Source: Trichoplax adhaerens
Lineage: Eukaryota > Animalia > Placozoa
Assembly (NCBI RefSeq): GCF_000150275.1
Contig: NW_002060945.1
Span: 3,743,172 to 3,807,171 of the forward strand
Reading direction: 5' to 3'
DNA length: 64,000 bases
The translations under genes and the position numbers were made by a program. Shown here piece after piece: positions 45,138 through 56,642 of this stretch; position 1 is the stretch's first letter, and each line of letters starts with the position of its first letter. Under the pieces are notes generated by a model that saw only the letters and a program-made list of their open reading frames with translations, had not been told where the DNA came from and made no database searches.

Positions 45138-48100
45138 TTACACTTGAGTGTTCTGTAATTTAAAGTAAACGCCTTCTTTTGCGATTAATTCATCATGTGT
45201 ACCGAATTCTATAATCTTCCCTTTTTGAAATACGGCTATACCATCAGCGTTTCGAATGGTAGATAACCGATGAGCTATGACGATACAAGTACGCCCTTTT
45301 CGAGCTTTATCTAAAGCTGCTTGTACTATCTATTAATTATAATTAATTATGAATAGTTTAAAAACGATATGATAATCTAAAAATATAATAGAGTAAAGTT
45401 TATAATGTATAAAATAGTCTTTACCTTTTCACTTTCAGTATCTAATGCAGATGTGGCTTCGTCTAACAGAAGAATACGCGGCTTCCTAACAAGAGCACGA
45501 GCTATAGCAATACGCTGTTTTTGACCACCTGACATCTGTGTACCTTTTTCACCTACTAAAGTTTCGTACCTCTAAAATGCAAATATATCAATCATAATAA
45601 GTTCATATTCATAATTGCAAAATGACATAAAAATATTATGTATGTCGTATTTAAATACCTCAGGCAGACCCTGAATAAAATCATGGATATTAGCAGATTT
45701 TGCAGCAGCTATAATGTCGTCTCGAGTTAGGGTTCTGGAATTATCTCCGTAAGAAATATTCTCTGCAATCGTTGTGTTAAATAAGATAGGTTCCTGCTGT
45801 ACAATACCCATTAATGATCTAAGCCATTTTATATTGATATTCCTAATTTCTTTTCCACCGACGGTCTACATTAAGGTAATATTAAAGTCCAATGTATTTT
45901 GAATATTAAATATACTATATGTTGTTTATATTTTATAAGTAGTATTGAAAAGAGTGAAAATGCGCGATATTGGTACAGTAATTAGAAATAGCTATGCTCT
46001 TACAACACTGCCAGAAGCTGTATCGTAGAATCGTTCCAATAAAGCAACCGATGTACTTTTACCACAACCGCTAGTACCGACAAGAGCAATAGTCTGGCCA
46101 GGTTTTACTTTAAACGTAATTCCATCTAGTACAGGTATCGTTGGACGTGTAGGATAATTAAAGTTAACATTCTCAAATTTAATGGTAGTATCGTTCTCAT
46201 TCTGTTTCGTGTGTATTAAAAAAACAGTACCATTGCGTTAATCTCATGGTTAATAAGAAATTTTTGTGGAAGATTATACAGGTATTTACCGTTCGTTCTC
46301 CACCTTCATTTTCGACATTGATCTTTGATTCACGTTCGAGAATAGCAAAGAGCCTAGCTGCTGACTGTTTTGCTTTCGCATAGTTTGGAACAAAGGTACT
46401 TGTCTCACCAAGTGTAAATGCACCAAAGACAATAGCAGAGAATACTCTGTAACACGATAAGAAAATATCTTAAATATAGTAGAGAATTCTACTACTAACT
46501 GTAAATACTGTCAAGGTAGCGTGTTTAATTTAGGACTTAACTAACTTGAACATATCGACAAAGGTCATTTCATTATTAGCAACTAGATAAGCTCCAAAAC
46601 GGAAAGCACCAGCGTAAGTGAAGAAAATAATAGCTTGAGAGAATCCGTACGCAAGACCGTAAATATGTGCTTGAATTAACGATTTCCTATATAAAGTATG
46701 GAAGCACTTGGTTATTGGTCAATAAGATACCTGAACATACGAACGTCGTAGTCAATCAATACCTTAACATTAATTTTAATTCATTAGAATACTGGGAAAT
46801 AATTTTGTTTTCCAAATTTAGCGATTCAACAGTACGAATATTTTCCAATGCTTCAGTAGATACCTGTAATAGAGATAAAATAAGTAAAAATGCTTATATA
46901 ACAGCTTAAATTCACATTTTATATCGTTGAAGTTTCCGACCTCAGCAGCTTTATCGGCAGCATCTTTGTTCTTTTTTGCGCCTCCAGAAAAGATTTGGGT
47001 TTGAACTGCACCAGAAACAGCCATGAAAGGTATACAACCAAGAATTACTAGAGCGAGTTTCCAGCCGTACACAAACGCTATTACTAAGGCAGCTACCATA
47101 GATACCATAGATTGTATGACAGCGCCTAAACGAGTTCCTGTAGCTCCTTTAACTTCCGAAGCATCAGTAGCTAAACGATTACATAAAGCCCCGGTAGTGT
47201 GTGACTGTTCATCAAACCATCCGATTTCCTATTACGATATTTACGTAAATATTATTATAAATTGAGGTTTCGTCTAATCGTGGTTAGTATTTAATTCTTT
47301 TAAGCGACTATTTACATATACGTGTATAATATCCCTAATGTTTGTATTACTTGTTTTAGGATTGCCCTAAATGTTTGTGATCTTAATCTTTTTGTCATAT
47401 ATTCTCCTGAAATTCCGTACATAAGCGTTTGTAAAAATACTGCTACTCCAGAGACAGACCCTAATACTAAAAACATTAAACTCCAAAATGTTGCATCGCT
47501 TTCTCGTTTTACAGGATCACATTCGGCGAATACCTAAATATATAATATTATTGTTTGTAAAATGAGTTCAGAAAACTTTTACTTATCGCAACTTTTTGTA
47601 GTATTGTAGGTAGTGACTTACAGCGATAATTTCACTAAAAAGTATAGCAAATACAGGCATAACAGATCCTTGTCCAATGGCTCCGAGAGTACCAATAAAG
47701 ATATAACCTAATTCATCTTTGTTTAGTCTCATGATCTTTAAGAACGATACTGGAGATAAATCTTCTTTTTCTTCTTCTTCTTCTTTTTGCACGTCTGAAC
47801 TAGCGCCTAATTAAAATCAAGTCTAAATCAAGTGCTCTACACGATAACACTTAGCATTATTAATGTAAACAACAAAATTTAGACAAACTTTTGGAGGAAA
47901 ATTGTCTTGATAATTGCTTTGATACGGATGATTGTCTTCCTCTCTTTGAATTATCTAAAACCTTAGGAGATCCTGCTCTGAACGAAGCGTTTTTCAAATC
48001 TGCGATCTCGTCGATTTGTGCGATTTCTTCTTCATCTTCGTTATCGTCCGATTTTCCGAAAGTTTGATTTGTTACAAGTTCGTAATAGATTCCTTTTACA

Positions 48101-53777: not shown

Positions 53778-56642
53778 TGAAGAATAAAAATTTTGAGTAA
53801 GATGGATTTTAACCGTATTTATACTTGATCGTTTTGAAATGTTTAATAGCCTTGAAATTCGTACTTTATAAGTTATCAATTATGAATGAACAAGTTGATA
53901 AAAGGTGAGCCGCCATTGGATTGTATCGTAGTTTCATTTTACACCCTTAAACTTGAGTGTTCTGTAATTTAAAGTAAACGCCTTCTTTTGCGATTAATTC
54001 ATCATGTGTACCGAATTCTATAATCTTCCCTTTTTGAAATACGGCTATACCATCAGCGTTTCGAATGGTAGATAACCGATGAGCTATGACGATACAAGTA
54101 CGCCCTTCTCGAGCTTTATCTAAAGCTGCTTGTACTATCTATTAATTATAATTAATTATGAATAGTTTAAAAACGATAAGATAATCTAAAAATATAATAG
54201 AGTAAAGTTTATAATGTATAAAATAGTCTTTACCTTTTCACTTTCAGTATCTAATGCAGATGTGGCTTCGTCTAACAGAAGAATACGCGGCTTCCTAACA
54301 AGAGCACGAGCTATAGCAATACGCTGTTTTTGACCACCTGACATCTGTGTACCTTTTTCACCTACTAAAGTTTCGTAACTCTAAAATGCAAATATATCAT
54401 TATCATAATAAGTTCATATTTATAATTGCAAAATAACATAAAAATATTATGTATGTCGTATTTAAATACCTCAGGCAGACCCTGAATAAAATCATGGATA
54501 TTAGCAGATTTTGCAGCAGTTATAATGTCGTCTCGAGTTAGGGTTCTGGAATTATCTCCGTAAGAAATATTCTCTGCAATCGTTGTGTTAAATAAGATAG
54601 GTTCCTGCTGTACAATACCCATTAATGATCTAAGCCATTTTATATTGATATTCCTAATTTCTTTTCCACCGACGGTCTACATTAAGGTAATATTAAAATC
54701 CAATGTATTTTGAATATTAAATATACTATATGTTGTTTATATTTTATAAGTAGTATTGAAAAGAGTGAAAATGCGCGATATTGGTACAGTAATCAGAAAT
54801 AGCTATGCTCTTACAACACTGCCAGAAGCTGTATCGTAGAATCGTTCCAATAAAGCAACCGATGTACTTTTACCACAACCGCTAGTACCGACAAGAGCAA
54901 TAGTCTGGCCAGGTTTTACTTTAAACGTAATTCCATCTAGTACAGGTATCGTTGGACGTGTAGGATAATTAAAGTTAACATTCTCAAATTTAATGGTAGT
55001 ATCGTTCTCATTCTGTTTCGTGTGTATTAAAAAAACAGTACCATTGCGTTAATCTCATGGTTAATAAGAAATTTTTGTGGAAGATTATACAGGTATTTAC
55101 CGTTCGTTCTCCACCTTCATTTTCGACATTGATCTTTGATTCACGTTCGAGAATAGCAAAGAGCCTAGCTGCTGACTGTTTCGCTTTAGAATAGTCTGGT
55201 ACAAAGGAACTTGTCTGACCAAGCGAAAGCGCACCAAAGACAATAGCAGAAAATACCCTGTTAAATGATAAGTAATTGTCTTAAAAGAAATCTCCTAAAA
55301 GTCATTAAAGTAGTGTTTAATTTAGAACTTGACGAACTTGAACATATCTGCGAAATTCATTTGATTATTAGCAACTAGGAAAGCTCCAAAACGGAAAGCG
55401 GCAGCATAAGTGAAGAAAATAACGGCTTGAGAGAATCCATATGCAAGACCGTAAACATGTGCTTGAATTAACGATTTACTACATGAAAGAAAAACTCTTA
55501 GTTATTTTAAGCACGAAATAGATAACGTATATATTGTGCTCAAGCTATACCGTAACATCACTTTCAAATTCTTAGTATACGCAGCAATAATTTTGTTTTC
55601 CAAATTTAGTGATTCAACAGTACGAATATTTTCCAATGCTTCAGTAGATACCTGTAATAGAGATAAAATAAGTAAAAATGCTTATATAACAGCTTAAATT
55701 CACATTTTATATCGTTGAAGTTTCCGACCTCAGCAGCTTTATCGGCAGCATCTTTGTTCTTTTTTGCACCTCCAATGAAGACTCGCATTTGAATAGCACC
55801 GGAAACAACGATGAAAGGTACGCAACCAAGAATTACTAGAGCGAGTTTCCAGCCGTACACAAACGCTATTACTAAGGCAGCTACCATAGATACGATAGAT
55901 TGTATTACAGCGCCTAAACGAGTTCCTGTAGCTCCTTTAACTTCCGAAGCATCAGTAGCTAAACGATTACATAAAGCCCCGGTAGTGTGTGACTGTTCAT
56001 CAAACCATCCGATTTCCTATTACGATATTTACGTAAATATTATTATAAATTGAGGTTTCGTCTAATCGTGGTTAGTATTTAATTCTTTTAAGCGACTATT
56101 TACATATACGTGTATAATATCCCTAATGTTTGTATTACTTGTTTTAGGATTGCCCTAAATGTTTGTGATCTTAATCTTTTTGTCATATATTCGCCTGAAA
56201 TTCCGTACATAAGCGTTTGTAAAAATACTGATATTCCAGAGACAGACCCTAATACTAAAAACATTAAACTCCAAAATGTTGCATCGCTTTCTCGTTTTAC
56301 AGGATCGCATTCGGCGAATACCTAAATATATAATATTATTGTTTGTAAAATGAGTTCAGAAAACTTTTACTTATCGCAACTTTTTGTAGTATTGTAGGTA
56401 GTGACTTACAGCGATAATTTCACTAAAAAGTATAGCAAATACAGGCATAACAGATCCTTGTCCAATGGCTCCGAGAGTACCAATAAAGATATAACCTAAT
56501 TCATCTTTGTTTAGTCTCATGATCTTTAAGAACGATACTGGAGGTAAATCTTCTTTTTCTTCTTCTTCTTCTTTTTGCACGTCTGAACTAGCGCCTAATT
56601 AAAATCAAGTCTAAATCAAGTGCTCTACACGATAACACTAGC
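53778..56642. repeat. Tandem duplicate of 44972-47855 (3' half of the ABCB gene)
   Basis: Near-identical exons, introns and proximal 3' UTR, apart from two divergent patches and scattered differences. Confidence 0.95.

What the first reader, a model, noticed from the sequence alone, without database searches (positions are those of the whole stretch)
46371..55822. Tandem P-glycoprotein paralogs homogenised except at the substrate pocket (TM10-TM12)
Seen: copies A (44972-47855) and B (53778-56642) are nearly identical even in introns, but differ densely in two patches. The first is A 46980-47034 versus B 55768-55822 (TM10: [18 protein letters not shown] vs [18 protein letters not shown]). The second is A 46371-46822 versus B 55182-55610 (TM11-TM12: [16 protein letters not shown] vs [16 protein letters not shown]), where both introns are also strongly diverged. 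The intron between the two patches is identical. Small non-synonymous differences also occur in TM8 (GVAV vs GISV) and TM9 (SMVS vs SIVS). Known: the human ABCB1 TM12 positions M986 and Q990 and TM10 E875/M876 (numbering from memory) line the drug-binding cavity; copy A has F and E at 986/990 and copy B has L and Q. Inference: an old duplication undergoing gene conversion, with selection preserving two efflux specificities on a shared ATPase and scaffold.
Basis: partly seen in the sequence, partly recalled or inferred. Interest (0 to 1): 0.82.

Follow-up and report, generated by a model that had tools for sequence, protein, structure and literature searches.

The report
Twin drug pumps differing in islands
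The simple marine animal Trichoplax has two neighbouring copies of a P-glycoprotein-type pump gene that are almost letter-identical except for four short islands in the membrane helices, likely because DNA copying between them erases most differences while selection keeps the ones predicted to change what each pump carries.

Summary
Confirmed and extended. The window holds two tandem ABCB1/4/5-like genes of Trichoplax adhaerens. Over 2860 aligned bases, 107 of 127 substitutions fall in the two stated patches (484 bases); dS is 0.455 inside and 0.012 outside. In 4 of 4 DNA runs the shared parts have about twice the flank depth and each patch about once, so these are paralogs, not alleles or mis-assembly. 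Copy B's front half is lost in the 50-N gap and collapsed onto A; contigs join it in all four runs. Contigs reveal two further half-depth islands there, in TM5 and TM6, with four haplotypes within 6 bases at TM6. Corrections: the TM8/TM9 differences are not fixed, and only 4 of 26 stable TM10-12 differences are listed pocket positions. With all four islands the pocket link is modestly significant (p 0.002-0.05). Copy A is the derived one (E at 990: 0 of 114 homologues). Best reading: old duplication, ongoing gene conversion, selection-held islands, likely two substrate ranges (0.6; untested). A known evolutionary pattern (opsins, frog ATP1A1, Drosophila MFS pair); no report of it for this pair was found.

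The parts
45138..51378 (-). Copy A: 21 exons, all introns GT-AG, open frame of 1279 residues, full ABCB transporter (TMD-NBD-TMD-NBD). First coding exon not found in the window.
   Evidence: motifs; three splice joints seen in RNA run X19
53947..56594 (-). Copy B, second half (linker, TM7-12, NBD2); equals the tail of TRIADDRAFT_54424 (P0002)
59255..59401 (-). Copy B first coding exon
   Evidence: tblastn of P0002, 49 of 49 residues
57301..57349 (-). Copy B second exon, counterpart of A 51333-51378; exon plus flanks 75% identical to A
56643..56692 (.). 50-N assembly gap hiding about 3 kb of B (TM1-6, NBD1), collapsed onto A
   Evidence: joint 50898-56696 in 4 of 4 runs and 2x depth
44972..50898 (-). 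Homogenised tract (A coordinates), from inside the intron before the TM1 exon to about 170 bases past the stop codon
46980..47034 (-). TM10 island, copy A (8 residue differences, human 865-880, including 876 T/M); wholly exonic
55768..55822 (-). TM10 island, copy B
46371..46822 (-). Cytoplasmic helix-TM11-TM12 island, copy A (19 residue differences, human 918-999, including 986, 987, 990, 993, 997) with diverged introns 15 and 16
55182..55610 (-). Same island, copy B
49742..49765 (-). TM5 island seen only in contigs: 8 substitutions in 24 bases (292 A/S, 295 T/V, 297 T/I, five silent) at about half depth; not phased to a copy
49474..49479 (-). TM6 island seen only in contigs: 347 N/H plus a silent site, four haplotypes; not phased to a copy
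44656..44971 (-). Diverged 3' flank of A (72% identical to B 53455-53777), dating the duplication
47106..47446 (-). TM8/TM9 single differences (768, 769, 840): present in the window, not fixed between paralogs

Best explanation
Two tandem P-glycoprotein-type pump genes of Trichoplax are near-identical over about 5.9 kb apart from four islands in TM5, TM6, TM10 and TM11-12, likely because gene conversion keeps overwriting an old duplication while selection removes conversions that cross those islands, which would give the two pumps different substrate ranges on the same ATPase and scaffold. Shown: two loci, their mosaic, the old divergence of flanks and islands, and intact ATPase motifs. Strongly inferred: ongoing conversion. 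Inferred: selection holds the islands; copy A is the neofunctionalised copy (E990, T993, N997, M868, T876), B stays nearer the ancestral pocket; the non-pocket differences are hitchhikers or compensatory. Untested: any difference in transport.
For: Clustering: 107/484 vs 20/2376 substitutions, 0 of 5000 shuffles. Two loci: shared/flank depth 1.9-2.4, A patch 0.95-1.35, B patch 1.1-1.6 in 4 of 4 runs from 4 studies. Old duplication: island dS 0.455; island introns, 5' exon region and 3' flank at JC 0.27-0.64; interior dS 0.012. Conversion: four haplotypes over 6 bases at TM6 in X8 (16, 18.2, 26.2 listed; about 15 by subtraction), with X2's depths fitting four of about 14-15. The H2 A-type protein has A letters at 26 of 27 island residues but B letters at 4 of 6 non-island residues it covers, and groups with A at 97/98. 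Selection: three of four islands are wholly exonic with identical or collapsed DNA on both sides; all four lie in membrane-domain DNA (chance 0.033); each changes a listed pocket position (295, 347, 876, 986/987/990; sliding test within the membrane domains p 0.0025 for all four hit, 0.025 for six hits). Island dN/dS 0.29 shows both frames are still constrained. A has residues seen in 0 of 114 homologues at 990, 993, 997 and 868.
Against: No functional data. 24 of 30 island residues are not on the pocket list. With the one published table alone p is 0.03-0.05, and for the two patches in the window alone 0.07-0.22; the list was assembled after the differences were known. dN/dS is below 1 in both patches. 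The large island holds two indel-rich introns that could block conversion without selection. TM5/TM6 variants are unphased, so they could be shared polymorphisms. The only true RNA run laid showed one type only, so expression of both copies is not shown. H2 is too close (about 1-2% DNA difference in the laid runs) for a deep trans-species test, and four more distant TM10 exon fragments show no A-type residues at 868, 876 or 880. The homologue set is vertebrate-heavy.
Confidence: 0.6

Rival explanations
1. Neutral escape from conversion: the islands are leftovers that conversion tracts have missed and can no longer pair across; they mark no functional split.
For: The 450-base island contains two indel-rich introns; island dN/dS is 0.24-0.51; most differing residues are off the pocket list.
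Against: Islands of 6, 24 and 55 bases have no indel and sit in identical DNA, so pairing is not blocked; a silent site 3 bases from the 347 codon is shuffled across both backgrounds while N/H stays near half; no island lies in either NBD or solely in an intron of the aligned half.
Confidence: 0.18
2. Selection holds the islands, but for something other than drug range: gating or ATPase coupling by TM10/TM12, lipid flopping as in ABCB4, or incompatibility of half-converted helices.
For: TM10 and TM12 form a lateral gate and rearrange in the cycle (PMC12072085, PMC11017244, passages); five differences lie in the cytoplasmic helix 918-923; 993 and 997 are highly conserved yet not on the pocket list.
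Against: Each island also changes a ligand-contact position, including the equivalent positions 347 (TM6) and 990 (TM12).
Confidence: 0.14
3. A young duplication whose islands were imported from a third gene or a divergent lineage.
For: Conversion from distant donors can create such mosaics (PMC3728101, abstract); the whole genome could not be searched for donors.
Against: Both flanks are as diverged as the islands, which a young duplication would not give; depth shows two copies, not three.
Confidence: 0.05
4. Assembly artefact or two alleles of one gene.
For: B begins at a gap, the front halves are collapsed, and identical tracts could come from shared reads; only contigs, no long reads, were seen.
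Against: Alleles would give 1x shared and 0.5x patches; observed about 2x and 1x in 4 of 4 runs, with unique sequence between and around the copies. An unbranched 2439-base contig at 2x depth in two runs shows the near-identity is not made by the reference assembler.
Confidence: 0.03

Closest known systems
Leptodactylus ATP1A1 R/S tandem paralogs (bioRxiv 10.1101/2020.08.04.234435; parts 1-2 of 3 read)
   Same: Tandem same-strand membrane-transporter duplicates; non-allelic conversion; few residues held apart, with silent differences hugging them; some at the ligand site, the rest compensatory.
   Different: There the split is shown across five species and by assay; here neither. Here the protein is a polyspecific exporter with 30 residues in four islands.
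Drosophila MFS transporter pair CG18281/CG17637 (PMC2588116; passages read)
   Same: Two peaks of paralog divergence in a converted pair of transporter genes with drug-efflux-like domains, read as selection.
   Different: Different superfamily; shown in two species; peaks not mapped to a solved ligand pocket in the passages seen.
Primate red/green opsins (PMC3924837; passages read)
   Same: Exonic divergence peak around functional sites with converted introns on both sides.
   Different: One peak, two key residues, function known.
Vertebrate ABCB1/ABCB4/ABCB5 P-glycoproteins
   Same: Same architecture and motifs; best structure hits are ABCB4 and ABCB1.
   Different: The Trichoplax pair is its own duplication, not an ortholog of one vertebrate gene. 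I recall a 1994 report (Hughes) of interlocus homogenisation of ATP-binding regions among mammalian MDR genes; recalled only, not found.

Membership tests
Full-length ABCB (P-glycoprotein-like) transporter | TMD-NBD-TMD-NBD in one chain | tested here: met
   A: 1279-residue frame aligning end to end with 114 full-length homologues. B: second half Pfam ABC_membrane + ABC_tran; first half inferred from joint and depth.
Full-length ABCB (P-glycoprotein-like) transporter | Intact Walker A, Q-loop, signature, Walker B glutamate, D-loop, H-loop | tested here: met
   All six motifs in both NBDs of A and in NBD2 of B
Full-length ABCB (P-glycoprotein-like) transporter | ATP-driven efflux of xenobiotics | not testable with these tools
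   No assay
Ortholog of vertebrate ABCB1 specifically | Groups with ABCB1 apart from ABCB4/5/11 | tested here: inconclusive
   Tree of 26 second halves: the Trichoplax rows form their own clade (100/100), deep forks open, no ABCB11 rows; ABCB4 and ABCB1 score alike
Conversion-selection islands in duplicates (Teshima-Innan pattern) | Local peaks of paralog divergence on a near-identical background | tested here: met
Conversion-selection islands in duplicates (Teshima-Innan pattern) | Duplication older than background divergence implies | tested here: met
   Flanks JC 0.30-0.35 against interior dS 0.012
Conversion-selection islands in duplicates (Teshima-Innan pattern) | Shared polymorphism between paralogs | tested here: met
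   Four haplotypes in 6 bases at TM6; H2 A-type protein with B letters outside islands. Unphased contigs, so which site is the shared one is open.
Conversion-selection islands in duplicates (Teshima-Innan pattern) | Peaks group by paralog and background by species across distinct species | tested here: inconclusive
   Holds for the close H2 lineage in the A-type only; four distant fragments uninformative; no placozoan locus among 24 metagenome loci
Conversion-selection islands in duplicates (Teshima-Innan pattern) | Functional difference traced to the peak residues | not testable with these tools
   Only mapping onto human pocket lists

The most novel reading that the evidence does not exclude
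Gene conversion has run a natural swap experiment on a multidrug pump and left a minimal recipe of about 30 residues in four helix islands, including the symmetry-related pocket pair 347 (N/H) and 990 (E/Q), that retunes P-glycoprotein specificity; copy A, with an acid at 990 seen in none of 114 homologues, is a specialised pump for a class of cationic dietary or biofilm toxins.
Probability: 0.3. Interest if true: 0.72.

Novelty: new member of a known kind. Interest (0 to 1): 0.52.

Why it matters
What sets the substrate range of a polyspecific P-glycoprotein is hard to learn from paralogs that differ everywhere. This pair differs stably at about 30 of some 1280 residues, in four swappable blocks, so the question becomes a 16-construct experiment. 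It would also be a rare transporter case of selection resisting gene conversion in an early-branching, mostly clonal animal, and it shows that the public model of copy B (686 residues) is truncated by an assembly gap.

Tried and rejected
No whole genome was held, so donors elsewhere could not be searched. Metagenome scan: 24 of 24 loci were 29-45% identical at best, none placozoan-like. Protein search with the TM1-2 exon at near length: 0 of 14 candidates scored. Four fragments of the TM9-10 exon at 82-88% identity (P0121-P0123, P0126; unnamed, presumably other placozoans) vary at TM10 but cannot be paired into paralogs. I first read about 21 unlisted differences of run X4 as lying in the TM1-2 exon; one search showed the difference table omits rows unpredictably, so I dropped that. 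Sites fixed in 2x contigs of one run but not another (e.g. 45983, 48831, 50240) look like concerted change but contig building can drop variants, so they are not counted as evidence. Codon 929 was wrongly counted as a residue difference and removed; three rows at 594-596 are a misalignment of B's start. RNA word shares (0.36-0.38) cannot tell one expressed copy from two. Earlier findings: none. One paper asked for by a recalled id was not held. No fold or complex job was sent: it would not bear on the question.
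Full report
Identity. The window is AT-rich (33% GC) with short introns. 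The TM9-10 exon of copy A matches a 519-residue protein of Trichoplax sp. H2 at 99% and TRIADDRAFT_54424 of Trichoplax adhaerens at 91%; the next hits are animal ABCB1-like proteins at 56% or less. The second is copy B: my B model equals its tail and its first exon lies at 59255-59401. Copy A has 21 exons, all introns GT-AG, and a frame of 1279 residues, with all six ATPase motifs in both NBDs. Its first coding exon is not in the window.

The observation. Aligning A 44972-47855 with B gives 127 substitutions in 2860 ungapped columns, 107 of them in the two stated patches (484 columns) and 20 in the other 2376; none of 5000 shuffles came near. Island codons have dS 0.455 and dN 0.13 (one Arg codon is over-counted as a change); the other 484 codons have dS 0.012. 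Introns 12, 13, 14 and 17 are identical; introns 15 and 16 are 57% and 78% identical. Human numbering was checked through structure entries (mouse + 4; 44 of 46 listed letters match the chimera used).

Two loci, not alleles. B begins at a 50-N gap, so artefact was a real worry. Of 24 runs listed I laid four DNA runs from four studies on 44000-58000. Taking medians of six flank and six shared bins that I chose from the 30, shared/flank depth is 1.93, 2.29, 2.41 and 2.15; the A patch bin is 0.95-1.35 and the B patch bin 1.1-1.6 times flank. The tool warns that summed contig depth is no copy number, and overlaps inflate it, but alleles would give 1x and 0.5x. In all four runs a contig joins 50898 to 56696, so B's own 5' end runs into the sequence shown once as A's front half: B is a full-length gene whose front 3 kb was collapsed. 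Two runs have one unbranched 2439-base contig over TM9 to NBD1 at 2x depth, so the near-identity does not come from the reference assembler. These are contigs, which drop rare variants; no long reads were seen.

Two more islands. A second lay on 49340-50330 (two DNA runs, one doubtful and one true RNA run) shows a TM5 bubble of 8 substitutions in 24 bases (21.4 vs 34.1 in X2, 35.5 vs 39.3 in X8), changing positions 292, 295 and 297, and a TM6 bubble changing 347 from N to H. At TM6 the 347 change and a silent site 3 bases away occur in all four combinations in X8 (three pieces listed, the fourth by subtraction), and X2's depths fit four of about 14-15. Four haplotypes in 6 bases need exchange between copies. 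TM3-4 and the TM1-2 exon lie on single 2x contigs in X2 and X8. Run X4 has one contig through this region, so there the bubbles are either homogenised or dropped. The RNA contig of X19 is spliced at the three junctions of my model and carries the non-window type at TM5 and TM6; the window type was not seen in that run. Which type belongs to which copy is not known.

Age and conversion. The second exon with its flanks differs by 25%, the 3' flank by 28%, introns 15 and 16 by 43% and 23%, in the range of island silent divergence (34%). So the duplication is as old as the islands and the interior was overwritten later. The H2 A-type protein has the A residue at 26 of 27 island positions but the B residue at 4 of the 6 non-island positions it covers, including TM8 and TM9; 2x contigs also carry B letters there. 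In a tree of 26 second halves, A groups with the H2 protein (97/98) on a branch of 0.044 against 0.009 for B.

The pocket claim. I used Table 1 of PMC11017244 (38 positions; passages read) and five vinblastine contacts from PMC12003890 (one passage); PMC7312539 (passages) also lists 876, 986, 987, 990 among docking contacts. Of 30 stable island residues, 6 are listed: 295, 347, 876, 986, 987, 990. Sliding the four islands within the membrane domains, all four hit with p 0.0025 and six hits arise with p 0.025; with the table alone (347 absent) p is about 0.045; for the two window patches alone p is 0.07-0.22. The list was put together after I knew the differences. All four islands falling in membrane-domain DNA has chance 0.033. 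Position 875 and the listed TM11 positions are the same in both copies, and five differences lie in the cytoplasmic helix 918-923. Among 114 full-length homologues (of 126 proteins held; mostly vertebrate), Q990 occurs in 110, S993 in 104, D997 in 113; A's E, T and N in none, while B keeps the consensus. At 869, 880 and 999 it is B that departs.

Mechanism. Shown: two intact-looking pump genes, mosaic identity, old flanks. Inferred: conversion tracts copy freely except where they would carry one copy's pocket residues into the other; linked silent, intronic and off-pocket changes pile up in the shelter of those sites, or compensate for them as in frog ATP1A1. The small exon-only islands are the best argument against neutral escape, which should start at indels. 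What the pumps carry is not known; an acid at 990 would suit cations, which is a guess.

Prior work. The pattern is established: opsins (PMC3924837, passages), a Drosophila MFS pair (PMC2588116, passages), frog ATP1A1 (parts 1-2 of 3 read), copepod GOT1 (PMC3728101, abstract). Searches for Trichoplax with P-glycoprotein, ABCB or gene conversion and for P-glycoprotein or ABC transporters with conversion or concerted evolution listed nothing on this pair or on such islands in a P-glycoprotein, judged from listings and, for PMC2984421 and PMC2720389, passage searches. The library lacks most subscription papers, and I read no supplements; ABC-family tables in placozoan genome papers could mention these genes.

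Verdict. Real, larger than reported, and a clean new case of a known evolutionary pattern. Interest 0.52: not surprising in kind, but it makes P-glycoprotein specificity directly testable.

Noticed in passing
window 51932/51933: Contigs of four runs leave the window here and run on in sequence it lacks (about 780 letters in X1, about 2200 in X4); the start of that loose end is not elsewhere in the window. The window may lack 2 kb or more upstream of A, possibly with A's first coding exon.
   Followed up: partly
window 53947-59401: The public model TRIADDRAFT_54424 (686 residues) splices across the assembly gap and so looks like a half transporter; it is likely a full-length gene.
   Followed up: yes
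window 46522, 46644, 46773: All four DNA runs differ from the window at these three sites of A's large island; 46773 gives V at 926, as in B and in the H2 protein.
   Followed up: partly
window 45299 and 47756: Copy A in the window has K at 1223 and S at 693 where B and most homologues have E (91 of 114) and P (102 of 114); the three runs covering 45299 show the B letter. Likely rare alleles or reference errors.
   Followed up: partly
window 42514-42598 and 42620-42704: An 85-base direct repeat, 88% identical, 106 bases apart, downstream of A.
   Followed up: no
window 51670-51709: Short stretch shared with many other contigs (loose ends on both sides in four runs); probably a dispersed repeat.
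   Followed up: no
window about 29300-37100, minus strand; about 21100-23000, plus strand: Open frames that by recalled motifs look like a BEACH-domain (neurobeachin/LRBA-like) gene and a gelsolin/villin-like gene; labels from memory, not searched.
   Followed up: no
P0121, P0122, P0123, P0126: Unnamed exon fragments 82-88% identical to A vary at 877-878 (QI, RV, KI), the same positions that differ between A (QI) and B (RV); a hint that this spot varies among relatives too.
   Followed up: partly
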